DNA of 64,000 bases from the sequence record MN850580.1, one strand, 5' to 3'. The position numbers and the translations under genes were made by a program. Origin of the DNA: Escherichia phage momo. How positions within the stretch are numbered: position 1 is the first letter of the stretch; every line of letters starts with the position of its first letter. Below, piece after piece: positions 538-44,573 of this stretch. The notes beneath the pieces are model-generated. The model was not told where the DNA came from, did not search any database, and worked only from the letters and a program-made list of their open reading frames with translations.

Positions 538-870
538 CTATTTGTTTAAATCTACAGAGACTGAAGAGATAACATAGATACCTTCTTCAGCAAAGAATTG
601 AGGTTTGCTAAGAGCACCAGTTGCCACGCATTTATCGTTAGCATCCCACAAGCTATAGTGTGAGACCGTTGCAGAAGCTGGGACAGTAATGTTAACTGTG
701 TCTTCTGAGGCAATTAAGCCATTATCCGGTTCAGAAAAATAAATAGCCACTGGCTGAGTAACCTTATTTGCTGTAGGGTCTGCCGTTGGGTCTACATTGT
801 GTAAAATAATAGTCGTTGGGGTTAGCGTGGCGAGGATTTTATTCTTACCATCAATAGTTAATGTTCCCAT
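538..870 (-). CDS. hypothetical protein (head/assembly module)
   Basis: 110-aa ORF abutting neighbours with no gap; position in head module. Confidence 0.4.
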   Translation of the reverse strand: MGTLTIDGKNKILATLTPTTIILHNVDPTADPTANKVTQPVAIYFSEPDNGLIASEDTVNITVPASATVSHYSLWDANDKCVATGALSKPQFFAEEGIYVISSVSVDLNK

Positions 871-1370
871 TAATTAAACCTTACTTTTTGTTTAAGGGCT
901 GTTGAATGGTTACCAGATTCATCTACCACATTTACAATCATATCATATACTTTGCCTTTGACAAGTACTTTGTAATCATTTTGTGAAAAAATGTATTCAA
1001 GTCTGTTTGTTTCTTTATTAACTGTCATTGGAGATTGAAATGCAGTGTCGAGGGTAATGAAAGCGGCTTCAATGCTATTAACATTGATACGTTTATTCTC
1101 GCAGTTATATAACTTTACACCCAAAAGGCATGAACTGTCAAATGGAATTTTAACAATTTCACTACAATTTCCTGAAATAAACGGTTTTCCACTCATTGGT
1201 GCATCAAGTAACCTACAAATAGTGAAAACGTCAGAGGCTCCACCATCACTTACATAACCTGAAAGGCTAACCCTTGAGCCAGCCTCTACAGATAATTTGT
1301 CAGTGATAATAAGAACACCTCTATACGAATGCACTCGTGTAGCATTTGAAATAGAGATAACTTCAGCCAT
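870..1370 (-). CDS. hypothetical protein (head/assembly module)
   Basis: 166-aa ORF, start overlaps stop of upstream gene. Confidence 0.4.
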   Translation of the reverse strand: MAEVISISNATRVHSYRGVLIITDKLSVEAGSRVSLSGYVSDGGASDVFTICRLLDAPMSGKPFISGNCSEIVKIPFDSSCLLGVKLYNCENKRINVNSIEAAFITLDTAFQSPMTVNKETNRLEYIFSQNDYKVLVKGKVYDMIVNVVDESGNHSTALKQKVRFN

Positions 1371-2845
1371 TATTTATTTGCCTTATTTGCTGTGCTTGGG
1401 TCTTTCGCTGAAGGTGTCTTTGCAGTACCTTCTCCAGCAGTCTTATAACCATCTCCTGAACGGCTTTGGCTATTTGGAGAAAGCTTTTCAGATACTGGTT
1501 GAGACTCATCAGCAGGAGGAAGACCAATATGCTCTCTAAGCTTGTTAGATAGCTCTTTGTCAACTTCCAAAGCACCTACTGCAACAGTCTTCTGGATATA
1601 AGAACCAATTGCTTCAAGGTCTGGAGTTTCGATATCATCATATGTGATTTGTACATGTTCTTCATCGTCCCACATATTAAGAGCATAAGTCTGTGCAACT
1701 AAATCACGGTTAATTACGTTCTTAATTTGCTTCAGCAGAATATCTACTGACATTGCTAATAAGCTTGTCTTAGAATCTGCAAGAGAGAATGAACCATATT
1801 TTGACTGACCCATAGCAAGAACATCTGACATAAATGCCATCATAATCTGCTTGGAATATCTGTCAATAATAGAACCTGTGTCGTATGCTTTAGCACCCTG
1901 TCTAGAAACTAATGAGAACTCGAAAATATCCTCTTTAGTATCTGGGTCGATATATCTAGGCCAGATTAAACCTGCTCTGTCATTTGCAATCATATCATTA
2001 ACAACAGTTTTGCAGTATTGTACGAAAGCTTTCTTTTCAGGTTCTGCATTTTCATCCAGATAGTCCGGTGGTAAACCAATCTTTGGCATACCAACCAAGT
2101 CTCTTGAAACACCAACAGCTTCATACTCTTCAATCTGTACTTTATACTTCCACGGCACATAAGCATTAAGTAATGGTGAACGACCTTCTGGGTTTCCATA
2201 TTCATCGTCATACTTAAACAGCATGAATTTAGCTCGTGGAAGTTTTCTTGTCAGTGGTCTTTCTCCGAGATTAATTGCTCCAGCAATATGTGAAACATTT
2301 CTCAGATTCTGTCTAACACCAGTAACTTTTCTAAAGTCTTCGTCAAAGTACCACTTATCAAGCGTTGACTGGTTTCTGATTGGCAATTTAGCCCATCCGA
2401 TTAAACCATCATCGAATTTTGATTGGTACTTCCCTTTCTTACCCTGACGCTTCTTATAAACTTTTTCGTTAACACAGAATCCATAAGTGCAGAATGACAT
2501 TACAGAGTTAATAAAATCTGCCCAATCATGCTCCATGTCATCCATTAAAGAATTAAAGAAGTCTGCTCTTTCAAGCATTTTAGGGTCTTGCTCTTTTCCC
2601 TTTGGAGGTACGAATCTCCAGTTGACTTTTCTGACAAACATCTTAATAATATTTACAGATGCTGCTACAGCAGGGTCACGCATCATTAATTGGAAAGTTT
2701 TAATACTTTCAGGGAACCTTAGTGCCTGACGAGGTTCTTCATAGATTCTTCCATTCTTAACCTTCAGACCCAAAGAACCTACTTCACCCATTCTAAATGG
2801 TGGTAAGCTTTCTTGTGTTTCTGTAATATCTGCCATTCTTCTCAC
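1370..2845 (-). CDS. putative portal protein
   Basis: 491-aa ORF immediately downstream of large terminase; size and synteny only, no motif recognised. Confidence 0.45.
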   Translation of the reverse strand: MRRMADITETQESLPPFRMGEVGSLGLKVKNGRIYEEPRQALRFPESIKTFQLMMRDPAVAASVNIIKMFVRKVNWRFVPPKGKEQDPKMLERADFFNSLMDDMEHDWADFINSVMSFCTYGFCVNEKVYKKRQGKKGKYQSKFDDGLIGWAKLPIRNQSTLDKWYFDEDFRKVTGVRQNLRNVSHIAGAINLGERPLTRKLPRAKFMLFKYDDEYGNPEGRSPLLNAYVPWKYKVQIEEYEAVGVSRDLVGMPKIGLPPDYLDENAEPEKKAFVQYCKTVVNDMIANDRAGLIWPRYIDPDTKEDIFEFSLVSRQGAKAYDTGSIIDRYSKQIMMAFMSDVLAMGQSKYGSFSLADSKTSLLAMSVDILLKQIKNVINRDLVAQTYALNMWDDEEHVQITYDDIETPDLEAIGSYIQKTVAVGALEVDKELSNKLREHIGLPPADESQPVSEKLSPNSQSRSGDGYKTAGEGTAKTPSAKDPSTANKANK

Positions 2846-2852
2846 CTAGCTA

Positions 2853-4454
2853 TCAACGTCTAAGCCCCTCATATGGGTTTCCTCTCACTAAGTCTGTGTG
2901 AGCACCCATTGATGGTGGCTTGAATAATTTAACTTCGTTAAGACTGTTGAAAGCATCACTGGTAGCATCCACTTGGTCATCTTTAGTTTTGCCATCACCA
3001 CAAAAGCCTTCAAGCTCTTGGAAATAAGCTTCGTTCCAACTACCTCTCAAAACTTTTACAAGTCCAGCTTCAGAAGCAGCAGAAAACCCCGCAAAGCGGG
3101 TAACTTTATCTTTATTTGTTGGTTTGGCTCTTGCTCGATAACCTTTCTCGGCAAGTTTCCTGATGAGGGATGTTGCGTAGGATTTACCAGCAGCGCCTGG
3201 GTCTTGAGGGATAAAAATACCAGTTCGCTTACCGTCACTTTCAGCAGTCAAATTAATTTGTGTTTCGACTCCAGAGGGTCTATCTCTAAATCTTACTACA
3301 TCAATGATATAATAGCAACCGTCTTTTTTAGATTTACCCATCTTAACACCTGCTGTCCAGTCTGGATTAGGGTTAATTTCAGATGGTAAAGTTGCTGCTA
3401 AGTCCCATGCCCTAACATCAAATACATCCTCTGGGAGTGAATCAACAATTTCACACCATTGTCTTTGCCAATAGTTTGAACCTTCTGCACGAGCCTTCCA
3501 GTTACCGAAACGAAGTCTTGCAACGTTTACAGGGGTGTTGTTTTCCAACTTACCGCGATACTTTGGTTCTAAGAAGTCAAGAATTGGGTTATCATCAATC
3601 GTACCAGAGATGAAGGTGTATGTTTGAGGAATCTCAAGAGGGAACATTTCAAGAATCTTGTCTCTCTCCCAATCAGAAACCATCACACCATCATTCATTA
3701 CATACCAACGAATACGACCACACTTTTCAGGGTCTGGATAACCTTCTTCATCTAAGAATGGTTCTACCCAATCATAAATAAAGTGGTCTCTGTCTGGGTT
3801 CATGGAAATCTTCATGTATGAATCACCTTCAGCACCAGAACGTAGACGGGTTTGTAGGTATGAAATCTGTGAAGCAGAGAAGTGTGTACCTTCGTCAAAG
3901 TAAATAGCTGAGTATTCAATACCCTGATGACCTTCAGCGTGCTTTTCAAGTTCTAGGTAGGTAAACTTGATAGTCGCCCCAGAAGGGAATGTGATAGTCA
4001 TTTTCTGCTCGTGAGGAATCCCACCAAACTTACCAAATAGTTTCTTTGCAGCAGGCCATAAACCACCTTGTAACTGTGTTGTATTTCGACGGAAATATAC
4101 AGCATTATAGTTAGGGTCTTCAATAAATCTTAAAGAGTCCATTAACAATGCAGCAGTTTTACCAGCACCAGCAGCACCACCATAAAGAACCAAGTCAGCA
4201 TTAGTGTTTAAAAAGACCTCTTGAGAACCCGGTTGAGGGGCTACATAGTTCTTATCAGTCATCAATTTAAAGATAAGGCGAACTTGGTCTGGTGTGTATC
4301 TTAATAAAGTCAGAATTTGAGTTGGAAGGAATTTAGAGGGGTCTTTACCGAATGATTTGATAATTTCTTTTACTTCATCAGAAAGCCCCAACTCTCCAGC
4401 TAGGACTTTCCTAACATCTTCCACTCGCTTCTGCTTAACAGCATTTAAGTCCAT
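2853..4454 (-). CDS. terL: terminase large subunit
   Basis: Walker A LYGGAAGAGKTAAL near N-terminus, ~530 aa; start set at MDLNAVKQK preceded by GGAGGTG. Confidence 0.85.
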   Translation of the reverse strand: MDLNAVKQKRVEDVRKVLAGELGLSDEVKEIIKSFGKDPSKFLPTQILTLLRYTPDQVRLIFKLMTDKNYVAPQPGSQEVFLNTNADLVLYGGAAGAGKTAALLMDSLRFIEDPNYNAVYFRRNTTQLQGGLWPAAKKLFGKFGGIPHEQKMTITFPSGATIKFTYLELEKHAEGHQGIEYSAIYFDEGTHFSASQISYLQTRLRSGAEGDSYMKISMNPDRDHFIYDWVEPFLDEEGYPDPEKCGRIRWYVMNDGVMVSDWERDKILEMFPLEIPQTYTFISGTIDDNPILDFLEPKYRGKLENNTPVNVARLRFGNWKARAEGSNYWQRQWCEIVDSLPEDVFDVRAWDLAATLPSEINPNPDWTAGVKMGKSKKDGCYYIIDVVRFRDRPSGVETQINLTAESDGKRTGIFIPQDPGAAGKSYATSLIRKLAEKGYRARAKPTNKDKVTRFAGFSAASEAGLVKVLRGSWNEAYFQELEGFCGDGKTKDDQVDATSDAFNSLNEVKLFKPPSMGAHTDLVRGNPYEGLRR

Positions 4455-4898: not shown

Positions 4899-4974
4899 TG
4901 GAGAATCCGAAGGGACTCGAACCCTTATAAACCTGTTTTGCAGACAGGCACATATCCATTTCTGTCACGGATTC
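4899..4974 (-). tRNA. tRNA-Cys(GCA): tRNA-Cys (anticodon GCA), CCA encoded
   Basis: Manual cloverleaf: acceptor GAATCCG/CGGATTC, anticodon loop CUGCAAA, T-loop. Confidence 0.65.
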
Positions 4975-4978
4975 AAAT

Positions 4979-5071
4979 TGGAGGAAGATACCAGACTTGA
5001 ACTGGTACACCGATTTCTCAGCTACTGGCAGTTTAGCAAACTGCTCCCTTACCTTTTAGGGTTAATCTTCC
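4979..5071 (-). tRNA. tRNA-Ser(GCU): tRNA-Ser (anticodon GCU), long variable arm, CCA encoded
   Basis: 93 nt; acceptor GGAAGAT/ATCTTCC; anticodon loop UUGCUAA. Confidence 0.6.
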
Positions 5072-5072
5072 A

Positions 5073-5870
5073 TTATTTCTGTAATGCGCTCTTCATTTCT
5101 GGTGTTGCAATAGTGTCAATCACACCAGTTTTACAAGCATCGTCAAACCAGTCTGGTAAGATACCTGCTAAGAACCCATTGATATTCGTTTTAAGGTACT
5201 CTGCAATAAGGGCAGCTTCTTCTTCAATCATCTGCACAACTTCATCTGCATAAGCTGTAATCTTTGAAATACCTTCATTAATCTTACTGACAGCTTGGTT
5301 AGCTAAATCAGAAACAGTATCAAGACCCTTATCAATAGCATCTTGTAAGTCACTTAACACACCATTAACACTATCTAGTGTACTGTTCATCATGTCAATA
5401 GCTTTTTGACCATACTCTGTAGCAACACCCATGATACCACTGAATGGTGTACAACCAACTTGTTCTCCTGCTGCACCCATAACATTGGAATACCCCTTTG
5501 CTACCTGCATACGTGATGAAAACTCATCAATAGATTTTTGACCGTAGTCTGTCAGAGTTTTAGTAGTTGCTGTAGTGCTTGTAAGGCTTGTTGTAAAGCT
5601 GTTTAGAAGGACTGTTGTAAGTCCAGCAGCAACAAGTTTCTCCTTCATTGTAGGGTCTGTTACAGAACTAATAGAGCTTACAAGTGATGTAGAAGCAGCT
5701 ACGGTTCCACCGAGAACTGCTGCACCAGTAATAAGCGGGTTAGAGAACCCTTTACCAGTTTTTAAGAGATTAAAAATCTCCTTACCTTGTTCTGTCATCT
5801 CTTTCATTAAGCACCTTTGAAATTGGTAGTCCAGTGGGATTTGAACCCTCTTCTCATGTTTTTCAGACAC
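5073..5870 (-). CDS. hypothetical protein embedded in tRNA array
   Basis: 265-aa ORF between tRNA genes; Ser/Thr-rich middle region. Confidence 0.4.
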   Translation of the reverse strand: MSEKHEKRVQIPLDYQFQRCLMKEMTEQGKEIFNLLKTGKGFSNPLITGAAVLGGTVAASTSLVSSISSVTDPTMKEKLVAAGLTTVLLNSFTTSLTSTTATTKTLTDYGQKSIDEFSSRMQVAKGYSNVMGAAGEQVGCTPFSGIMGVATEYGQKAIDMMNSTLDSVNGVLSDLQDAIDKGLDTVSDLANQAVSKINEGISKITAYADEVVQMIEEEAALIAEYLKTNINGFLAGILPDWFDDACKTGVIDTIATPEMKSALQK

Positions 5871-5899
5871 GCGCTTTAACCATATAAGCTACTTGGACT
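5824..5899 (-). tRNA. tRNA-Phe(GAA): tRNA-Phe (anticodon GAA)
   Basis: Anticodon loop CUGAAAA, T-loop TTCAAAT, CCA encoded. Confidence 0.6.
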
Positions 5900-5905
5900 A
5901 TAAAT

Positions 5906-5981
5906 TGGGGTGACCTACGGGATTTGAACCCGTATAGACCATGTTCACAGCATGGGTCATTACCGTTTATGATAAGGCCAC
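5906..5981 (-). tRNA. tRNA-His(GUG): tRNA-His (anticodon GUG)
   Basis: Acceptor with one G-U pair; anticodon loop CUGUGAA; CCA encoded. Confidence 0.65.
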
Positions 5982-6012
5982 ATTTAAGGACTCTCGCAAG
6001 AATCCTTAGAAG

Positions 6013-6088
6013 TGGCAGCGGCATAAGGATTTGAACCTTAATAGGACAGCTTCAGAGGCTGCTGCATTGCCAGTTATGCTATACCGCT
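6013..6088 (-). tRNA. tRNA-Gln(CUG): tRNA-Gln (anticodon CUG)
   Basis: Anticodon stem GCAGC/GCUGU, loop CUCUGAA. Confidence 0.55.
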
Positions 6089-6093
6089 AAATT

Positions 6094-6172
6094 TGGTACT
6101 CCATATCGGATTCGAACCGATACATAACACAGATTTTAAGTCTGGCCTCTCTGCCAATTGGAGTAATGGAGC
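6094..6172 (-). tRNA. tRNA-Leu(UAA)?: tRNA with anticodon UAA (Leu by anticodon) but short variable loop
   Basis: Acceptor and T-arm clear; anticodon loop CUUAAAA; no long extra arm. Confidence 0.5.
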
Positions 6173-6174
6173 AT

Positions 6175-6250
6175 TGGCGGGGGATGTTGGAATTGAACCA
6201 ACTTCTTCGATTTCAAAGACCGAGGTTTTAACCTTGTAAACTAATCCCCT
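6175..6250 (-). tRNA. tRNA-Gln(UUG): tRNA-Gln (anticodon UUG)
   Basis: Anticodon stem UCGGU/AUCGA, loop CUUUGAA; possible 1-72 mismatch. Confidence 0.55.
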
Positions 6251-6258
6251 TTAAATCT

Positions 6259-6816
6259 TTACTTTCTCAGTGGATGAATAAAGAATGCCAACATAACTCT
6301 TTCCCTTGAGAATGCTCTTTCTTCTGGGACAACACTTTTTAGTTTCCATCCAACATAAATTCTCCAGTAAAACTGTTTACCAAAGATTTTAATTGACGGA
6401 ATAAAAGCGAATAATCCCCAAGCATTGTTGTTCCACATTAGGAGATAACCTGTCTGATTATCTTCAGGGTCAGAACTTACGTTGATATTACCTTTCCACT
6501 TAGTAACATCTTTTACATCTCTTCCTAATACATGGTAAGAGAAGTTATAAGCTTTGTTTCTCCAGAGCCATCCAACTCTCTGCATATAAACACCGAGCTT
6601 GCCAATCTTTCTAATCTTAGCCCATCTTTTAATGTGACCTTCATCACCATCAATAGGGTTGTCATATGTCTCCATCCATCTGAATCCAAAAGGTAGATGC
6701 CCTTTCTTCTCACTATAGAATGGAACTACAAAAGGTGCTAAGATAACTGCTAAGGTTGCTGCCAATGGGTCTAACAAAGCTAGGAAAATCCATGAAGCAT
6801 ACTTCAAATATCTCAT
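6259..6816 (-). CDS. hypothetical membrane protein embedded in tRNA array
   Basis: 185-aa ORF with hydrophobic N-terminal segment. Confidence 0.4.
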   Translation of the reverse strand: MRYLKYASWIFLALLDPLAATLAVILAPFVVPFYSEKKGHLPFGFRWMETYDNPIDGDEGHIKRWAKIRKIGKLGVYMQRVGWLWRNKAYNFSYHVLGRDVKDVTKWKGNINVSSDPEDNQTGYLLMWNNNAWGLFAFIPSIKIFGKQFYWRIYVGWKLKSVVPEERAFSRERVMLAFFIHPLRK

Positions 6817-6835
6817 TTAAATAGCCTCTTTAAAT

Positions 6836-6911
6836 TGGCGCAGGATAAGGGATTCGAACCCCTATTAACAGCTTCGTAGACTGCTGCTCTATCCATTTGA
6901 ACTAATCCTGC
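6836..6911 (-). tRNA. tRNA-Arg(ACG): tRNA-Arg (anticodon ACG)
   Basis: Perfect acceptor GCAGGAT/ATCCTGC; anticodon loop CUACGAA. Confidence 0.65.
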
Positions 6912-6916
6912 AAAAT

Positions 6917-6994
6917 TGGTGTTCCAAGACGGATTCGAACCGTCACTAGTACAAGGTTTGAGCTTGCATCCTCTGCCAATTGGGATATTGGAAC
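6917..6994 (-). tRNA. tRNA-Leu(CAA)?: tRNA with anticodon CAA (Leu by anticodon) but short variable loop
   Basis: Acceptor GUUCCAA/UUGGAAC; anticodon loop CUCAAAC. Confidence 0.5.
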
Positions 6995-6995
6995 A

Positions 6996-7070
6996 TGGTA
7001 CTCACTAAAGGACTTGAACCTTTTTCTTCATCTTGTAAGGGTGATGTTTTACCATATAAACTAAGCGAGT
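6996..7070 (-). tRNA. tRNA-Val(UAC): tRNA-Val (anticodon UAC)
   Basis: Anticodon loop CUUACAA; T-loop TTCAAGT. Confidence 0.55.
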
Positions 7071-7165
7071 ATGAAAGAGGTCTGAAGTTGTGCCGCTAAC
7101 TCAACTCCGTGGAATTTGTTACGGTCTTCAGTTGACACCAGCGGTCTTTCACTTGACCTCTGAAT

Positions 7166-7241
7166 TGGTGCTCCCACAAGGATTCGAACCCTGATAAGTT
7201 GCTTACAAGGCAACCGTAATAGCCAATTATACGATAGGAGC
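7166..7241 (-). tRNA. tRNA-Thr(UGU): tRNA-Thr (anticodon UGU)
   Basis: Anticodon stem GUUGC/GCAAC, loop CUUGUAA. Confidence 0.65.
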
Positions 7242-7248
7242 ATTAATT

Positions 7249-7323
7249 TGGAGCATCCAGAGGGAATCGAACCCTCAACCTCAGTTTGGAAGACTGTAAT
7301 TTTCCCGTTTAAACTATGGATGC
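7249..7323 (-). tRNA. tRNA-Gly(UCC): tRNA-Gly (anticodon UCC)
   Basis: Perfect acceptor GCAUCCA/UGGAUGC; anticodon loop CUUCCAA. Confidence 0.65.
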
Positions 7324-7329
7324 ACTAAT

Positions 7330-7403
7330 TGGTGGAGTCACTGAGAATTGAACTCAGTTCCCAAGTTTGCAAAACTCGAATTTTAACCATATAAACTATG
7401 ACC
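7330..7403 (-). tRNA. tRNA-Ala(UGC): tRNA-Ala (anticodon UGC)
   Basis: Acceptor GGGGUCA with G3-U70 pair (Ala identity element); anticodon loop UUUGCAA. Confidence 0.65.
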
Positions 7404-7410
7404 CCATTGT

Positions 7411-7486
7411 TTGGTACAGGTGGAGGGAATTGAACCCATCGTCTTACTGATTAAGAGTCAGCCGCATAACCATTTTGCTACACCTG
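7411..7486 (-). tRNA. tRNA-Lys(CUU): tRNA-Lys (anticodon CUU)
   Basis: Anticodon stem GCUGA/UCAGU, loop CUCUUAA; weak T-stem. Confidence 0.5.
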
Positions 7487-7493
7487 CATTAAT

Positions 7494-7571
7494 TTGGTAG
7501 GAGACAAGGGATTCGAACCCTCAAACATCTCGTTCTAAGCGAGATAGGTTTACCAATTACCGTCAATCTCC
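7494..7571 (-). tRNA. tRNA-Leu(UAG)?: tRNA with anticodon UAG (Leu by anticodon) but short variable loop
   Basis: Perfect anticodon stem UCUCG/CGAGA, loop CUUAGAA; 5-nt variable loop. Confidence 0.55.
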
Positions 7572-7830
7572 CATTAAATCTTTTTAGAGAACTTCTAAGA
7601 ACCTAAGCAACAAGGTTCCACAACAAGCTGTAATAACCTTAGAAGCCCTCTAAAAAGACCTAAAAAGGTCTTTGCATAGTCTTGTTTAATCCGGTGACTA
7701 GAACCTTTGGAGAGCTTGATATTATCTCTTCTCCGTGACACCTACTAGGTGCTTTACTGTGCGTGTACGACAATACACTAGGGATACCAAAGCAACATCC
7801 GAATGAAGCTTGGCTTTAAATCTTATTAGG

Positions 7831-7918
7831 CGGTAAGTAAAGGAGTCGAACCCTCACCGTATCTCTACAGTGGCAACTGTTTTCAAGACAGTTTGGCTAC
7901 CATTAGCCGCTACCTACC
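7831..7918 (-). tRNA. tRNA-Ser(UGA): tRNA-Ser (anticodon UGA), long variable arm, no encoded CCA
   Basis: Perfect anticodon stem ACUGU/ACAGU, loop CUUGAAA; discriminator G. Confidence 0.6.
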
Positions 7919-7931
7919 CCTAATAAGACTT

Positions 7932-8014
7932 TGGCATGGGACGGAGGAGTTGAACCACTTTGAAACGGTTTTGGAGGCCGTTGCTCATGCCTTAGAGTCT
8001 TAACATCGTCCCAC
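7932..8014 (-). tRNA. atypical tRNA-like gene (possible anticodon CCA, Trp) with extra nucleotides between acceptor and D region
   Basis: Clear acceptor GUGGGAC/GUCCCAU, T-arm and encoded CCA, but D-region does not fold canonically in manual fold. Confidence 0.4.
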
Positions 8015-8157
8015 ACTATAATTCGAAGCTTACCGTATTTTCACAACACTGTAAAGCCCCTTCTCAGATTATTTACATGTTCTGGAAAACATGAGATACA
8101 GACCACCTCCTTACACGGAGACCCGATAAGGTCGTCTAAGTAATCTGCTAACTAAAT

Positions 8158-8239
8158 TGGTCGAGGCGGCAGGACTCGAACCCGCATACTCCACTTACTC
8201 GGTTAACGGCGGTTTAGAAGACCGCTGAGATACGCCCCG
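8158..8239 (-). tRNA. atypical tRNA-like gene; one perfect 5-bp stem with loop CUUCUAA (UCU), no canonical D-arm
   Basis: Acceptor CGGGGCG/CGCCUCG, T-arm and CCA present; body folds ambiguously. Confidence 0.35.
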
Positions 8240-8487
8240 TAATTATCTTTAAAGACTCTCTTAGAAAGCCCTTAAAGATGCCCACCTTATTAATCATACC
8301 GTGGGCTAGTACGCCAAATTCTTTGATGAGGGATTGGAAGACCTCACTGGTGTTTAGCCTATCAAGCTACTGCCAGAAAAACATTGTCGTTTGCATTTAT
8401 TTTAAATTTGCAAAATAGACGCTACGCAACGAAAACTAAGGTTACTATAAAGTAGTCGCATCTCAATGTCAACAACTTTATTGAAAT

Positions 8488-8563
8488 TGGTACTGGTAGG
8501 TGGAATCGAACCACCGATGTTCCCTTATCAGGGGAGTGTTATAACCTTCTTAACTATACCAGC
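8488..8563 (-). tRNA. tRNA-Ile(GAU): tRNA-Ile (anticodon GAU)
   Basis: Anticodon loop CUGAUAA; T-arm GGUGG/CCACC. Confidence 0.6.
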
Positions 8564-8564
8564 T

Positions 8565-8641
8565 TGGAGGTTCAGATGGGAATCGAACCCACATTCATAG
8601 GGCTTATGAGACCCTTGCATTACCTTATCTGCGACTGAACC
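8565..8641 (-). tRNA. tRNA-Met(CAU): tRNA-Met (anticodon CAU)
   Basis: Perfect acceptor GGUUCAG/CUGAACC; anticodon loop CUCAUAA. Confidence 0.6.
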
Positions 8642-8645
8642 ATAT

Positions 8646-8720
8646 TGGTAGAAGTGGAGGGATTCGAACCCATCGCCTGTCAGATTAAAAGTCTGCCGCA
8701 TCACCATTCTGCTACACTTC
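8646..8720 (-). tRNA. tRNA-Lys(UUU): tRNA-Lys (anticodon UUU)
   Basis: Anticodon stem GCAGA/UCUGA (one G-U), loop CUUUUAA. Confidence 0.6.
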
Positions 8721-8872
8721 CATTAAATTATCTTTGTAGATAAGCTACCCAGACTTGCTTAAGGTCTGTAGCGATGTGACTTTTTGGGTTTAAATCTAGA
8801 ATTTACCCTTTCACCCTTTGTGGTCGCATACTCACAGGTAAGCTTAATAACTTATCTACAAAGATAATTACC

Positions 8873-9003
8873 AGACCGTTGTTTATCATCTTAAGTGCTA
8901 CCATTACACCAACTCGACCTCTGCCGAGTGAAGGAATCGAACCTTCGCCTTTTCTTTACCGAGAAATAGATTGTTTAAGTTTTGCTGTAAACGGTCTTCT
9001 GTA
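8873..9003 (-). repeat. tRNA-spacer hairpin repeat (CCAGACC...GGTCTTCTG) enclosing a T-arm-like hairpin
   Basis: Inverted termini CCAGACCGTT / AACGGTCTTCTG; internal GAAGG-AATCGAA-CCTTC with no matching acceptor stem. Confidence 0.4.
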
Positions 9004-9013
9004 AATTTGTTGA

Positions 9014-9113
9014 GCCAGACCAAGTTTTAAATTTTTTCAAAATTGAATTGGCTTGAAAATATCATACATTCTTGCTGTATTTGGTCTTCTACTCCTTTAA
9101 AGAATACTCGTAA
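9014..9113 (-). repeat. tRNA-spacer hairpin repeat (CCAGACC...GGTCTTCT)
   Basis: Same terminal inverted repeat as 8873-9003. Confidence 0.4.
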
Positions 9114-9152
9114 GAACTCTTTAAGGGAGGGGCTAAATAGCCCTCTCAAAAT

Positions 9153-9230
9153 TGGCGGTTACGAAGGGATTTGAACCCTCATCATCTCCCGTGACAGGGG
9201 AGTATTTTAACCAAATTAAACTACATAACC
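9153..9230 (-). tRNA. tRNA-Asp(GUC): tRNA-Asp (anticodon GUC)
   Basis: Perfect anticodon stem CUCCC/GGGAG, loop CUGUCAC. Confidence 0.65.
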
Positions 9231-9235
9231 TTTAT

Positions 9236-9323
9236 TGGTGTGCCGTGTAGGAGTCGAACCTACCGAGTCTCAATGACAAGGGATTTACAGTCCCCACCGC
9301 TACCATCTACGGGATAACGACAC
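9236..9323 (-). tRNA. tRNA-Tyr(GUA): tRNA-Tyr (anticodon GUA), long variable arm
   Basis: 85-nt body; anticodon loop CUGUAAA. Confidence 0.6.
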
Positions 9324-9331
9324 ATTTAATT

Positions 9332-9408
9332 TGGCGGTTAGTCAGGGATTCGAACCCTGTGCCATTCGCTTAACAGGCGACCGCACATACCTTATGTGCT
9401 TCCTAACC
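9332..9408 (-). tRNA. tRNA-Asn(GUU): tRNA-Asn (anticodon GUU)
   Basis: Anticodon loop CUGUUAA; T-arm CAGGG/CCCUG. Confidence 0.55.
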
Positions 9409-9418
9409 TTAATACATT

Positions 9419-9481
9419 GCCAGACCGTGTTTTTTCTTTTATCCGCAAAAAAGTATTTTGTTGCTGAATACGGTCTTCTGC
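9419..9481 (-). repeat. tRNA-spacer hairpin repeat (CAGACCGT...ACGGTCTTCTG)
   Basis: Terminal inverted repeat, immediately 3' of tRNA in transcript orientation. Confidence 0.4.
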
Positions 9482-9486
9482 AAAAT

Positions 9487-9563
9487 TGGAGGCGGGTGCA
9501 GGAGTCGAACCTGCCGATACCATGCTAATGAGACATGTGAGACGCCCTTTCTCTATACCCGCA
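9487..9563 (-). tRNA. tRNA-Met/Ile2(CAU): tRNA with anticodon CAU (initiator Met, elongator Met or lysidine Ile2)
   Basis: Anticodon stem CAUGU/GCAUG, loop CUCAUUA; possible 1-72 mismatch. Confidence 0.5.
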
Positions 9564-9574
9564 ATTCTTAATGA

Positions 9575-9648
9575 CCAGACCAAATCTCTTCTTTGTCCGA
9601 TTTACCTTCAGATGAATAAGATTAAGTTTGCTGTAATTGGTCTTCTGT
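9575..9648 (-). repeat. tRNA-spacer hairpin repeat (CCAGACCAA...TTGGTCTTCTG)
   Basis: Terminal inverted repeat as in the other spacers. Confidence 0.4.
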
Positions 9649-9654
9649 CAAAAC

Positions 9655-9732
9655 TGGCGTTCCAGAAGGGATTTGAACCCTCAGATATCCACTTTGAAAG
9701 AGTGGTGACTATACCATTTTGTCTACTGGAAC
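9655..9732 (-). tRNA. tRNA-Glu(UUC): tRNA-Glu (anticodon UUC)
   Basis: Perfect acceptor GUUCCAG/CUGGAAC; anticodon loop CUUUCAA. Confidence 0.65.
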
Positions 9733-9739
9733 ATTAATT

Positions 9740-9816
9740 TGGTCTCTGTTGGAGGACTTGAACCTCCGGCCTTACCGCCCCAAACGGAACGCTCTACCAA
9801 TCTGAGCTAAACAGAG
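9740..9816 (-). tRNA. tRNA-Pro(UGG): tRNA-Pro (anticodon UGG)
   Basis: Perfect acceptor CUCUGUU/AACAGAG; D-arm GCUC/GAGC; anticodon loop UUUGGGG. Confidence 0.65.
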
Positions 9817-42112: not shown

Positions 42113-43060
42113 TTACATAGAAATTCTGTCACGAATCTCAGCGATTTTTGCATCATTCATTCGGGATTCACCTTTAATCTTAGTCCATCCCAAATATCCG
42201 CACACCCTGTTAATCACAGAGATATCGTGTGAATGACAAACCTCACATTCTTCAACATCAGCCTTTGGTCTGTTACCACAATGTTCACAGATTGCTAAGT
42301 CAAAGTTAAGTCCCTGATAGAAACCTTTCAACATCCCTCTTGTAATACAACTTTTAAGTGCTGTTAAGTTTTCTGGGTTAGCTACTCTTACATACTGGAT
42401 TCTACCACCTCTACAGATATGGAAGAATGGCTCTTCTAAGTCCTGCTTCTCAAATGGTGAGATGTCTGCTGCAACATTCATATGGAAACTGTTTGTAAAG
42501 TATTCCTTGTCAGAGACACCTTTAATAACGCCAAACATATCTCTGAACTGTTTTAACTGAGTTCCACAAAGTGATTCTGCTGGAGTGCCATATACCGCAT
42601 ACAAGAAGCCATCTTCGTTCTTAAACTCTTCAGTTTTCATGTTGATGTATGCCAGAACATCATATGCAAAACTATAGCTTCCAACTTCATGAAGTCGTTT
42701 ACCTTCAGCAAGAACAGATAGCTCATCAAGCGCAGTAACCCCAAAAGAAGCTGTGAAGGACTTCACAATATCCCAACCAACCCTGTCAGTAGGCTTCTTA
42801 GTTCCTTTGTACAGACCACCTTGCGTGAATGCAAGAGGGTTAGAACTTGCTGGCATATTAGCAATCATTTCGTAGCGTTTCTTGTGGAAGCTGCGAATCA
42901 TCTCTAGGTACTTATCAAGCTCTTTCCAGAAATCTAAACCATTCTCTTTAGAATACTGGTAAATCATTGGTAAGTTCAAAGATACAGCACCAATGTTAGC
43001 ACGACCTACATAAAACTCTTCACCATGTTCGTTATGGTATGGTGATAAAAATGCTCTACA
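42113..43060 (-). CDS. nrdD: anaerobic ribonucleoside-triphosphate reductase NrdD, exon 2 (C-terminal glycyl-radical domain)
   Basis: C-terminal zinc-ribbon CEHCG...CEVCHSHD and glycyl-radical RVCGYLG; reading frame is open upstream to 43081; proposed exon start at codon TGT gives junction SPMG|CRAFLSP. Confidence 0.6.
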   Translation of the reverse strand, partial: CRAFLSPYHNEHGEEFYVGRANIGAVSLNLPMIYQYSKENGLDFWKELDKYLEMIRSFHKKRYEMIANMPASSNPLAFTQGGLYKGTKKPTDRVGWDIVKSFTASFGVTALDELSVLAEGKRLHEVGSYSFAYDVLAYINMKTEEFKNEDGFLYAVYGTPAESLCGTQLKQFRDMFGVIKGVSDKEYFTNSFHMNVAADISPFEKQDLEEPFFHICRGGRIQYVRVANPENLTALKSCITRGMLKGFYQGLNFDLAICEHCGNRPKADVEECEVCHSHDISVINRVCGYLGWTKIKGESRMNDAKIAEIRDRISM

Positions 43061-43376
43061 CTTGTTGTTCAGGTAAGTTCGCTAAGCTTACCCCGCTTTA
43101 TTCAAGCTGCTTACTGTCGCCAGTAAGTCCAGACTATATCTTCTACTTATTTCTAAGTAGCGTACCATTTCGAGTCGCTTGACCCTACACCGCTACATTC
43201 ATCACGGTTAGTCGTTCGGCATTTAGATGTACTCAAACTCATATTCGAAGTTATTCGGTATGTAAGACTCCTATGTTGTATAGTTTCTTACATCGTACAT
43301 CATTTAGCACAGGATTGTCTACATCTGTAGAGTTTCCCTGTTTAGGCACGTTTTAGATGAGCTATAGAGCTTGTTA
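43061..43376 (-). other. putative self-splicing group I intron in nrdD (no ORF)
   Basis: Interrupts nrdD; starts with in-frame TAA after exon-terminal U; R-like GACTAA and S-like AGATATAGTC elements, GNRA-capped hairpin CTTACTG-GCGA-CAGTAAG, ends in G. Confidence 0.6.
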
Positions 43377-44573
43377 ACCCATCGGTGAAATTACCTTACC
43401 AGAACGCTCAAAAGCCTCTGCTACAGCACCATGTCCAGTTACACTTAAGAAATCTGGATACATCGCTTTAGAGCAACACTCAATAGCTTTTTCAAACAAC
43501 CTTGCTTGGCATACATCAAGCTTATGTCTCGTTTCTTCATAGATATACACAAGTTTAGGGAACACAACAGGTTTTTTGCTTTTTCCTTGCCCGTTCATCC
43601 TTACGTTAAGGATTGTATTGGCAATCATAAACTGAAGACGGTTATCTTCATTGTGCATATCTGGTTCCAACAGACCAAATGTCAGAGTAGTAAATGCAAA
43701 ATCACCGCGACTGCAAGGAACAGTGTTAAGTTTCATTTCAAGAGATTGGAAACCTTGTGTTAACTCATTCTGTAATTGCTCCATTACGTAATTATAGTGT
43801 TGCTCTTTAGGGATTCCGTACTCTTCAGCTTTCTCTGAGTGGTACACTAAAGACTTCTTAGCATACGGTACAAGTACCTTATCAATCTCTGCTAAAGTAA
43901 AGCCACCAAATTGCTGTGCAGTTGCTGAAAGAACTACATCACCAATAACCTGTAAGGCTGACAGCACAGACTTCGGTTCACAGTATTCAATGCCAGACAT
44001 TTCAAAGCCACCTTTCAGCACTTTACCAATGTCAAACAGGCAACAGTTGATACCACCAAAAATTAGGTCTCTTAAATCATGGATATAGATAAACCCTTTT
44101 TCAATGGCTTCAAGTTCCTCTGGTGTTAAATGGTACTGTTTAAAGATTTCTTTAGTCAGGTAACCACGGATAATTGAACCTTTCGTAGAAATTAAACTGC
44201 TGTCAAAGTTAGCATTTTCACGGTCACCTAAGAAGAGTGTATCTTTAGTCTTCTGGTAGAGTTCATCCCAATTTTGAGCAACCTCTTTACGGTAATTTCT
44301 GTATGTTGAGTAAGACTCATAAATCTCGTGATTAACTTCTGCCAAAGCACCTTCAACAATACTGTGAATATCATTTACCGAGATAAGCAAATTATTCTGC
44401 TTAGTGGACTTTACCAAAATCCTCATGAATGCTGACTCAAGAGCTTGGGTAACATCTGGTGGAAGTTCTTTATATCCAACCCTGTTAGCTGACTTAGCTA
44501 CTGCTGCTAAAACTTTTTTTATATCAGGTTCTTCAAGTGAGCCGTTCTTTTTAATAATCTGTACTTTGTTCAT
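43377..44573 (-). CDS. nrdD: anaerobic ribonucleoside-triphosphate reductase NrdD, exon 1 (N-terminal ATP-cone and core)
   Basis: ATP-cone-like N-terminus (IIKKNGSLEEPDIKKV); spliced product about 714 aa, matching class III RNR size. Confidence 0.65.

What the first reader, a model, noticed from the sequence alone, without database searches (positions are those of the whole stretch)
42113..44573. nrdD interrupted by a probable ORF-less group I intron
The class III RNR gene is split into two ORFs. The upstream one ends ...KVISPMG followed directly by TAA; the downstream frame is open from 43081. The 316-nt gap contains GACTAA (R-like), AGATATAGTC (S-like), a GNRA-capped hairpin CTTACTG-GCGA-CAGTAAG, and ends in G. 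Splicing after the U of ...ATGGGT and before TGT AGA GCA would give a continuous ~714-aa protein with junction SPMG|CRAFLSP. T4 nrdD carries a group I intron, so the arrangement is precedented, but here the intron has no endonuclease ORF.
Basis: partly seen in the sequence, partly recalled or inferred. Interest (0 to 1): 0.7.

Follow-up and report, generated by a model that had tools for sequence, protein, structure and literature searches.

The report
ORF-less group I intron in nrdD

Summary

- **The gene.** The window is a Felixounavirus. Its nrdD lies on the minus strand: exon 1 at 44573..43377, intron at 43376..43061 (316 nt), exon 2 at 43060..42113.
- **Boundaries.** Felix O1 itself has an uninterrupted nrdD that aligns with a clean 316-nt gap at exactly these boundaries.
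- **The protein.** The spliced 714-aa protein aligns without a gap to T4 NrdD. The first exon-2 codon is the catalytic Cys (T4 C290).
- **Intron identity.** Rfam's group I model scores above its gathering threshold. A P1-P10 model with the U·G pair, the terminal G (ωG), P7.1/P7.2 and no P2 is 98.9% paired across 10 homologous introns, with double changes in 35 of 61 pairs.
- **Family.** It belongs to the T4 td-like IA2 family.
- **Lost endonuclease gene.** About 59 related phage records carry the same intron with a 154-aa HNH gene in P6. The window keeps only its ends, with ATG changed to ATA, so it is a 426-nt in-frame deletion derivative.
- **Same site elsewhere.** Homologous introns sit at the same Gly|Cys site in four other phages, from three named genera plus an unclassified Vibrio phage. 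T4's own nrdD intron sits elsewhere.
- **Not tested.** Splicing has not been tested experimentally.

It is a new member of a known kind, of low to moderate interest.

The parts
43377..44573 (-). nrdD exon 1 (codons 1-399: ATP-cone and the N-terminal part of the NRDD domain). It ends ...CCG ATG GGT.
   Evidence: ORF list, Pfam ATP-cone and NRDD matches, alignment to Felix O1 nrdD.
43061..43376 (-). Group I (IA2, td-like) intron, 316 nt. It starts with an in-frame UAA and ends with the terminal G (ωG) at 43061.
   Evidence: Clean 316-nt gap against the intron-less Felix O1 allele; Rfam RF00028 at 54.4 bits; covariation; fold z = -3.9.
42113..43060 (-). nrdD exon 2 (codons 400-714). The first codon, UGU, encodes the catalytic Cys (T4 C290 equivalent). 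The exon also holds the C-terminal glycyl-radical domain.
   Evidence: phmmer alignment to T4 NrdD structure 1H78; Pfam NRDD and Gly_radical.
43356..43383 (-). P1: the last 7 exon-1 nt, GAUGGGU (43383..43377), pair with the internal guide GCUCAUC (43362..43356). A U·G wobble sits at the 5' splice site.
   Evidence: Seen directly in the sequence; U·G is present in 10 of 10 homologous introns and 3 P1 pairs show double changes.
43363..43370 (-). P10 guide strand GCUCUAUA. It pairs with the first 8 nt of exon 2, UGUAGAGC (43060..43053).
   Evidence: Seen directly in the sequence. It covaries with the exon: Vibrio phage F100 has GAUUGGCA pairing with UGCCGAUC.
43161..43350 (-). P3 (CGUGCC 43350..43345 with GGUACG 43166..43161). 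It encloses P4-P6, the P7 5' strand, P7.1 and P7.2.
   Evidence: 5 of 6 pairs have compensatory changes and 100% of cells are paired (helix 2).
43309..43341 (-). P4 (ACAGGG/UCCUGU) and P5 (UCUAC/GUAGA, loop AGAU).
   Evidence: helices 3 and 4; the minimum-free-energy fold.
43219..43308 (-). P6 (GC/GC), P6a (GAUGUAC/GUACAUC) and the P6b hairpin (AUGUAAGA/UCUUACAU). This arm carries the HNH gene in relatives.
   Evidence: All 5 tested P6a pairs covary (helix 6); fold; the position of the 426-nt insert in Alf5 and Bas63.
43223..43261 (-). Remnant of the HNH homing-endonuclease ORF: AUA CCG followed by the last 10 codons and UAA (IPNNFEYEFEYI*). The start codon is mutated from AUG to AUA.
   Evidence: Alignment with the HNH+ introns of Alf5 and Bas63 and with JLBYU28, which retains the AUG; the Alf5 ORF matches Pfam HNH_3.
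43132..43213 (-). P7 (GACUA 43213..43209 with UAGUC 43136..43132, the G-binding helix), forming a pseudoknot with P3. J8/7 together with the P7 3' strand reads AGAUAUAGUC.
   Evidence: Invariant in all 10 introns; this is the R/S consensus region of the Rfam alignment.
43172..43208 (-). P7.1 (ACCG/CGGU) and P7.2 (GGGUC/GACUC), the extra helices that mark subgroup IA.
   Evidence: All 4 P7.1 pairs covary (helices 8 and 9); fold.
43143..43160 (-). P8 (CUACUUA-GAAA-UAAGUAG).
   Evidence: 5 of 6 pairs covary (helix 10).
43072..43127 (-). P9 (CUUACUG-GCGA-CAGUAAG), P9.1 (GCUU/AAGC) and P9.2 (GGUAAG/CUUACC).
   Evidence: helices 11 and 12; the centroid fold. P9.1 was compared by eye only (PD06 has GCAC/GUGC).

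Best explanation

**Proposed mechanism (inferred from the structure, not tested).**
- In the pre-mRNA, the last exon-1 bases GAUGGGU pair with the intron's internal guide GCUCAUC (P1, with a U·G wobble at the splice site).
- An exogenous guanosine bound in P7 attacks after that U.
- The adjacent guide bases GCUCUAUA hold the first 8 nt of exon 2 (P10).
- The freed exon-1 3'-OH attacks after the terminal G at 43061.
- This joins GGU (Gly399) to UGU (Cys400, the thiyl-radical cysteine) and gives a 714-aa class III ribonucleotide reductase.

**Consequence of not splicing.** Unspliced RNA ends translation at the in-frame UAA that forms the first three intron bases. It cannot yield a C-terminal fragment containing the catalytic Cys.

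**Origin (shown by comparison).** The intron descends from a mobile intron that carried a 154-aa HNH homing endonuclease gene in the P6 arm. In this lineage 426 nt of that gene were deleted in frame and the start codon has since mutated.

**Mobility (inferred).** The intron can no longer home by itself. It still occupies, and so presumably protects, the endonuclease's target site.
For: **Exact excision site**
- Felix O1 nrdD (2145 nt, uninterrupted) aligns with a single 316-nt gap at ...CCGATGGGT|TGY AGA GC.
- About 115 Felixounavirus records are intron-less across this junction.

**Covariance model**
- RF00028 scores 54.4 bits against a gathering score of 50, with E = 4.8e-11 for the window and 5e-13 locally.

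**Structure and covariation**
- The test set was 10 homologous introns: 3 Felixounavirus, PD06, nepoznato, JEP1, Vibrio phage F100, T4 td and 2 Aeromonas terminase introns.
- 98.9% of 609 pair cells form standard pairs, against 33-42% when the 3' partners are slid.
- 35 of 61 pairs change on both sides, and 0 of 500 shuffles reach any of the five measures.
- The U·G at the 5' splice site is present in 10 of 10 introns.
- P10 covaries with exon 2: window GCUCUAUA/UGUAGAGC, F100 GAUUGGCA/UGCCGAUC.
- The thermodynamic fold alone recovers P3-P9.2, with z = -3.9.

**The spliced product makes sense**
- There is no gap against T4 NrdD (1H78) across ISPMGCRAFLSP/VSPMGCRSFLS, and the Cys corresponds to T4 C290.
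- Pfam NRDD matches residues 119-712 as a single stretch.

**Splicing is needed**
- No in-frame start codon lies between the TAG at 43084..43082 and the TTG at 42979.

**The gene stays under purifying selection while interrupted**
- Window against JLBYU28, both intron-bearing, shows 114 synonymous and 36 non-synonymous codon differences and no stops.

**The endonuclease gene was lost by deletion**
- Alf5 and Bas63 have the same intron plus 426 nt, which is the interior of an HNH_3 ORF.
- That interior occurs in 59 records, while the intron occurs in 94.

**Annotation precedent**
- The GenBank record of phage Bas63 annotates nrdD as a two-piece joined CDS across this intron.
Against: - There is no experimental evidence of splicing for this intron or for any Felixounavirus nrdD intron in the literature I could search.
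- The Rfam score is only 4 bits above the gathering threshold.
- Rfam's own alignment misplaces the model's P1/P2 region in exon 1 (43437..43377). The intron has no P2.
- The covariation set has only 10 sequences, three of them nearly identical, and I derived the structure from these same sequences.
- P9.1 and P10 could not be scored with the tool because MAFFT put them out of register. They were checked by eye.
Confidence: 0.93

Rival explanations
1. This is a genes-in-pieces reductase. The two ORFs would be translated separately and assemble into an active NrdD without RNA splicing, as in the Aeromonas phage Aeh1 NrdA that is split by mobE.
For: - Many GenBank records annotate two separate nrdD CDSs.
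- Functional split ribonucleotide reductases exist in phages (reviewed in PMC3653736).
Against: - The downstream frame has no ATG/GTG/TTG between 43081 and 42979, so the 27 codons CRAFLSPYHNEHGEEFYVGRANIGAVS could not be translated. These include the catalytic Cys and are conserved with T4.
- The spacer has a complete, covarying group I core.
- Its boundaries obey the U·G and terminal-G rules.
Confidence: 0.03
2. The intron is a decayed, splicing-dead relic, and nrdD is a pseudogene in this phage.
For: - The homing endonuclease gene has already degenerated by deletion and an AUG-to-AUA change.
- nrdD is dispensable under aerobic laboratory growth (general knowledge).
Against: - Every core helix of the window's intron is fully paired.
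- The invariant P7 and J8/7 sequences are intact.
- Both exons are open, and their differences from other intron-bearing alleles are mostly synonymous.
- The ORF-less form persists at 95% identity or more in about 35 phage records.
Confidence: 0.04

Closest known systems
Same intron, HNH-encoding form, in other Felixounaviruses (Alf5, UAB_Phi87, JH2, Bas63/JohannRWettstein)
   Same: - Same insertion site.
- 96-99% identical intron sequence outside the ORF.
- Same structure.
   Different: - They carry 426 more nt, which complete a 154-aa HNH_3 endonuclease gene in the P6 arm. The window retains only two N-terminal codons, the last 10 codons and the stop, with AUG changed to AUA.
- Only the Bas63 record annotates a spliced CDS.
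- The UAB_Phi87 paper describes the gene merely as 'split by a homing endonuclease gene' (PMC4837284).
nrdD introns at the same Gly|Cys site in Vequintavirus JEP1, Phapecoctavirus nepoznato, Justusliebigvirus PD06 and Vibrio phage F100
   Same: - Identical insertion point (…MG|CR…).
- Homologous cores, 67-71% identical.
- No P2.
- Homologous HNH proteins, 54% and 40% identical to the Alf5 protein.
- PD06 is also ORF-less (290 nt).
   Different: - The host phage lineages differ.
- PD06 lost its ORF by a deletion with different end points that also removes the start codon, so this was an independent loss.
- P10 is shorter in the PD06 group (5 bp).
Phage T4 td intron (group IA2, 1016 nt, encodes I-TevI)
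   Same: - 68.5% identity over the alignable core.
- Same helices P3-P9.2, including P7.1 and P7.2.
- ORF looped out of P6.
- In-frame UAA as the first intron codon.
   Different: - The host gene is different (thymidylate synthase).
- It has a P2 hairpin.
- Its endonuclease is GIY-YIG, not HNH.
Phage T4 nrdD (sunY) intron with I-TevII
   Same: - Same host gene.
- Homologous IA2 core: 76% identity over intron nt 144-262 and 82% over nt 14-75.
   Different: - It is inserted about 119 codons upstream, between the window's residues 280 and 281.
- Its ORF (GIY-YIG I-TevII) lies 3' of the catalytic core, not in P6.

Membership tests
Group I self-splicing intron | Conserved core of paired regions P3-P9, with the P3/P7 pseudoknot | tested here: met
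   The Rfam RF00028 hit is above its gathering score. All core helices are 95-100% paired across 10 homologs, with compensatory changes.
Group I self-splicing intron | P1 formed by the 5' exon end and the internal guide sequence, with a U·G wobble at the 5' splice site | tested here: met
   GAUGGGU pairs with GCUCAUC. U·G is present in 10 of 10 aligned introns.
Group I self-splicing intron | Terminal guanosine (ωG) at the intron 3' end, and P10 pairing with the 3' exon | tested here: met
   The intron ends in G at 43061. P10 is 8 bp and covaries with the exon sequence in Vibrio phage F100.
Group I self-splicing intron | Conserved G-binding helix P7 and J8/7 sequence | tested here: met
   GACUA...AGAUAUAGUC is invariant in all 10 introns, including T4 td. 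Binding of guanosine itself was not tested.
Group I self-splicing intron | Precise excision restores a continuous, functional reading frame | tested here: met
   The intron-less Felix O1 allele has exactly the predicted ligated sequence. The spliced protein aligns without a gap to T4 NrdD.
Group I self-splicing intron | Guanosine-dependent self-splicing of the RNA in vitro or in vivo | not testable with these tools
   This needs RT-PCR or GTP-labelling. No published data were found.
Subgroup IA2 (T4 td / nrdB / nrdD type) | Extra helices P7.1 and P7.2 between the P7 5' strand and the P3 3' strand, and sequence homology to the T4 introns | tested here: met
   P7.1 and P7.2 are present and covary (helices 8 and 9). 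The core is 68.5% identical to T4 td and has 76-82% local matches to the T4 nrdD intron. P2 is absent, unlike in td.
Mobile (homing) group I intron | An intact intron-encoded homing endonuclease gene | tested here: not met
   Only a 12-codon remnant without a start codon remains, and no sense ORF is longer than 32 aa. The window's intron is therefore a non-autonomous derivative. Relatives carry the intact HNH gene.

The most novel reading that the evidence does not exclude
One lineage of IA2 intron plus HNH gene may use the Gly|Cys junction directly 5' of the NrdD thiyl-radical cysteine codon as a shared homing site.

- It occurs there in Felixounavirus, Vequintavirus, Phapecoctavirus, Justusliebigvirus and an unclassified Vibrio phage.
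- It has lost its endonuclease gene independently at least twice.
- Felixounaviruses then hold all three stages of the homing cycle side by side: about 115 empty, 59 with the endonuclease gene and 35 without it.
- The form without the endonuclease gene might be retained because it shields nrdD from cleavage by endonuclease-bearing co-infecting relatives.
Probability: 0.5. Interest if true: 0.35.

Novelty: new member of a known kind. Interest (0 to 1): 0.25.

Why it matters
**Annotation.** Most of the roughly 94 GenBank records with this intron list nrdD as two genes. One even calls an antisense ORF inside the intron a protein. The correct product is a single 714-aa NrdD.

**Biology.**
- It adds a clear case to the rule that phage group I introns sit at the most conserved, catalytically essential codons of nucleotide-metabolism genes.
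- Felixounaviruses are easy-to-grow coliphages and Salmonella phages, and they carry empty, endonuclease-bearing and endonuclease-less alleles of one site.
- That makes them a convenient natural system for studying intron homing, endonuclease decay and intron-mediated competition between co-infecting phages.

None of this changes current understanding.

Tried and rejected
**Misleading tool output**
- Rfam's alignment extends 61 nt into exon 1 (to 43437) to fill the model's P1/P2. I rejected this, because the intron-less alleles and the U·G/P1 pairing put the 5' splice site at 43377|43376 and the intron has no P2.
- A 1-nt boundary ambiguity (T|T) remains from the alignment alone. It is resolved by the terminal-G rule.

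**Script errors, later fixed**
- My first helix mapping picked the wrong occurrences of GATGT and TCTA, giving false mismatches in P6a and P5. This was corrected.

**Helices left out of the tool count**
- P10 and P9.1 are out of register in the MAFFT alignment. I excluded them from the count and compared them by eye.

**Hypotheses tested and dropped**
- T4 nrdD intron at the same site: no, it lies at the window's residues 280/281.
- Divergent exon-1 patch as a co-conversion tract of this intron: rejected. The patch ends about 100 nt before the junction. ESCO56 has the same intron without the patch.

**Literature**
- Searches for a described or experimentally spliced Felixounavirus nrdD intron found only three items.
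- One is a 'split gene' remark for UAB_Phi87 (PMC4837284).
- One is a generic statement that intron boundaries were annotated in the BASEL phage collection (PMC8594841).
- One is 'two introns' listed among the non-coding RNAs found in phage SPJ41 (PMC9951933).
- The Felix O1 genome paper's 'introns absent' is correct for Felix O1 itself.
Full report
**Context.** The 2.46-kb region is 92-97% identical to nrdD of many Felixounavirus phages (Felix O1-like myoviruses of E. coli and Salmonella), so the window comes from such a phage. The gene lies on the minus strand within the nrdB - glutaredoxin - nrdD - nrdG cluster.

**Checking the observation.** I read the sequence on the minus strand.
- The 399-codon upstream ORF (44573..43374) ends ...KVISPMG, with GGT at 43379..43377 followed directly by TAA.
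- The downstream reading frame opens after a TAG at 43084..43082, that is from 43081.
- It has no in-frame ATG, GTG or TTG before 42979.
- The 316 nt between GGT and TGT (43376..43061) end in G.
- They contain GACTAA, AGATATAGTC and the hairpin CTTACTG-GCGA-CAGTAAG, as described.
- Joining the exons gives a 714-aa ORF.

**Are the boundaries real?** Felix O1 itself and many relatives have an uninterrupted nrdD.
- In a five-way alignment, the Felix O1 gene (2145 nt) matches the window's two exons with one clean 316-nt gap...CCGATGGGT|TGCAGAGC....
- A 300-nt synthetic 'spliced junction' query matches many Felixounavirus records, Felix O1 among them, as one uninterrupted piece.
- The 1-nt T|T ambiguity is resolved by the rule that a group I intron follows a U and ends in G.

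**Is the spliced protein sensible?**
- The 714-aa product has an ATP-cone domain and a single uninterrupted NRDD domain match over residues 119-712.
- It aligns to the crystallised T4 NrdD (1H78) with no gap across the junction: ISPMGCRAFLSPY against VSPMGCRSFLSVW.
- Counting along that alignment, the Cys encoded by the first exon-2 codon is T4 Cys290. From published work on T4 NrdD, this is the thiyl-radical cysteine at the tip of the active-site finger loop.
- The intron therefore sits immediately 5' of the catalytic codon.

**Is it a group I intron?**
- Rfam RF00028 is the only non-tRNA hit in the window: 54.4 bits against a gathering score of 50, E = 4.8e-11, or 5e-13 when only 700 nt are searched.
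- Rfam's alignment wrongly extends into exon 1 to fill the model's P1/P2. The rest maps P3-P9 correctly.
- By inspection, P1 is exon GAUGGGU paired with the guide GCUCAUC, with a U·G wobble at the splice site.
- The adjacent guide bases GCUCUAUA pair with the first 8 exon-2 bases, UGUAGAGC (P10).
- P3, P4, P5, P6/P6a/P6b, P7, P7.1, P7.2, P8, P9, P9.1 and P9.2 can all be drawn. Coordinates are in the parts list.
- There is no P2.
- An unconstrained thermodynamic fold recovers P3-P6b, P7.1, P7.2, P8, P9, P9.1 (in the centroid structure) and P9.2. The energy is -82.9 kcal/mol, z = -3.9, and none of 100 shuffles folds as well.

**Covariation.** The intron alone finds homologs at 67-75% identity in many phages. 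I fetched several of them.
- I trimmed the variable P6 interior and aligned 10 introns, each with 8 nt of flanking exon (alignment A1).
- Scoring my structure on A1 gave 98.9% of 609 cells as standard pairs, against 33-42% when the 3' partners are slid by 1-3 columns.
- 35 of 61 pairs change on both sides, and 0 of 500 shuffles reach any of the five measures.
- P3 (5 of 6 pairs), P6a (5 of 5), P7.1 (4 of 4), P8 (5 of 6) and P9.2 (4 of 6) are rich in compensatory changes.
- P7 and J8/7 are invariant, and the splice-site U·G is present in all ten.
- MAFFT put P10 out of register, so I compared it by eye. In Vibrio phage F100, exon 2 starts UGCCGAUC and the guide reads GAUUGGCA. The guide thus tracks the exon.
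- As a check on my boundary calls, the T4 td intron came out at 1016 nt, the length I recall from the literature.

**Family.** The intron has P7.1 and P7.2. Its alignable core is 68.5% identical to the T4 td intron. It has 76-82% local matches to the T4 nrdD intron core. It is therefore a td-like subgroup IA2 intron. Like td, it begins with an in-frame UAA.

**The missing ORF.**
- The closest relatives by exon identity (LNA6 and Alf5, 97.4%) span 2887 nt rather than 2461 nt.
- The extra 426 nt lie in the P6 arm and complete a 154-aa ORF with a Pfam HNH_3 domain.
- In the ORF-less phage JLBYU28 the remnant still reads AUG CCA followed by the last 10 codons and UAA (MPNNFEYEFEYI*). The change is therefore an in-frame internal deletion, not an ancestral ORF-free state.
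- In the window, and in ESCO56 whose intron differs by 2 nt, the AUG has become AUA.
- No sense-strand ORF longer than 32 aa remains.

Approximate counts in the phage collection, which includes some duplicate GenBank/RefSeq records:

| Allele state | Records | Basis |
|---|---|---|
| Intron present (80% or more covered) | 94 | |
| HNH interior present | 59 | |
| ORF-less intron | about 35 | 94 minus 59 |
| Intron-less | about 115 | |

**Same site in other phages.** tblastn of the spliced protein shows homologous introns at exactly the same ...MG|CR... position in four other phages.

| Phage | Lineage | State |
|---|---|---|
| PD06 | Justusliebigvirus | ORF-less, 290 nt |
| nepoznato | Phapecoctavirus | HNH+ |
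| JEP1 | Vequintavirus | HNH+ |
| F100 | unclassified Vibrio phage | HNH+ |

- The HNH proteins of nepoznato and F100 are 54% and 40% identical to the Felixounavirus one. Intron and endonuclease gene have therefore travelled together.
- PD06's deletion has different end points from the one in the window, so it is a second, independent loss.
- T4's own nrdD intron interrupts the gene between the window's residues 280 and 281, about 119 codons upstream. It carries GIY-YIG I-TevII 3' of the core. It is a precedent in kind, not the same element.

**Rival explanations.**
- *Two separately translated polypeptides.* This is very unlikely. The 27 codons after the junction include the catalytic Cys and have no start codon upstream of them in frame.
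- *A dead intron in a pseudogene.* This is unlikely. All helices are intact in the window's copy. Both exons are open. Differences between two intron-bearing alleles are mostly synonymous: 114 synonymous against 36 non-synonymous codons between the window and JLBYU28.

**Prior knowledge.**
- The Felix O1 genome paper reported no introns, which is true for that phage (PMC3185647).
- The UAB_Phi87 paper noted nrdD 'split' by a homing endonuclease gene, citing Moreno Switt et al. 2013 for other members of the genus (PMC4837284).
- The BASEL collection paper says intron boundaries were annotated (PMC8594841). Its Bas63 GenBank record does join the two nrdD exons.
- I found no structural description of this intron and no splicing experiment.

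**Verdict.** This is a real, almost certainly splicing-competent, td-like group I intron that has lost its HNH gene. It is inserted before the catalytic Cys codon of nrdD. It is a new member of a well-known kind, and the interest is modest. Splicing itself remains inferred.

Noticed in passing
window 43473..43873 (nrdD exon 1, CDS nt ~700-1100): This is a sharply divergent patch. It has 17-30 differences per 100 nt against Felix O1, JLBYU28, Bas63 and ESCO56, but none against Alf5. Only 17 phage records share it at 95% identity or more, and all others are at 78% or less. It covers the position homologous to the T4 nrdD intron site, but it is not contiguous with the window's intron. Its origin is unknown; it may be a recombination import.
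   Followed up: partly
window 42113..44573 compared with L001 (Alf5) and L005 (ESCO56): The window combines Alf5-like exons (an HNH+ phage, 97% identical) with an ORF-less intron that differs by only 2 nt from that of ESCO56, whose exons are 91% identical. This indicates recombination within nrdD among Felixounaviruses.
   Followed up: partly
window 43039..43182 (+); L002 2427..2570 (+): A 47-aa plus-strand ORF lies antisense to the intron's 3' part. Its equivalent is annotated as hypothetical protein JLBYU28_46 in GenBank, which is almost certainly a spurious gene call.
   Followed up: no
GenBank records MG065664, MG065668, MG065684, MG065644 ('Campylobacter phage' A132, A126, A138, A147): A126 and A132, labelled as Campylobacter jejuni phages, carry a Felixounavirus-type nrdD with this intron (92.7% identical over the gene). 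A138 and A147 match only the 3' part of the intron, at 71-75%, like the large coliphages JEP1 and nepoznato. The records look mislabelled or mixed.
   Followed up: no
L001/L004 intron P6b hairpin (equivalent to window 43260..43293): In the HNH+ relatives, the AUG start codon of the endonuclease gene overlaps the 3' strand of the P6b hairpin (AUGUAAGA/UCUUACAU), and the AGGAG Shine-Dalgarno sequence lies just inside the hairpin. This suggests structure-based translational control, as I recall has been proposed for T4 I-TevI. It is an inference only.
   Followed up: no
window 4902..9816 (-): A cluster of 24 tRNA genes, typical of Felix O1-like genomes.
   Followed up: no
L006 (Vibrio phage F100) 50..4184: This phage's nrdD is annotated in five pieces with two HNH genes. 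There is a second interruption upstream (HNH gene at 827..1756) in addition to the intron at the Gly|Cys site, and an apparent further break at 3803/3804.
   Followed up: no
L011 1685..1927 and L012 1677..1917 (Aeromonas Plateaulakevirus phages): ORF-less introns about 70% identical to the window's intron interrupt other genes. In 4L372D the gene is the large terminase; in phiA047 both flanking ORFs are annotated only as hypothetical proteins. Rfam scores are 85 and 68 bits. The same intron lineage therefore occupies different genes.
   Followed up: partly
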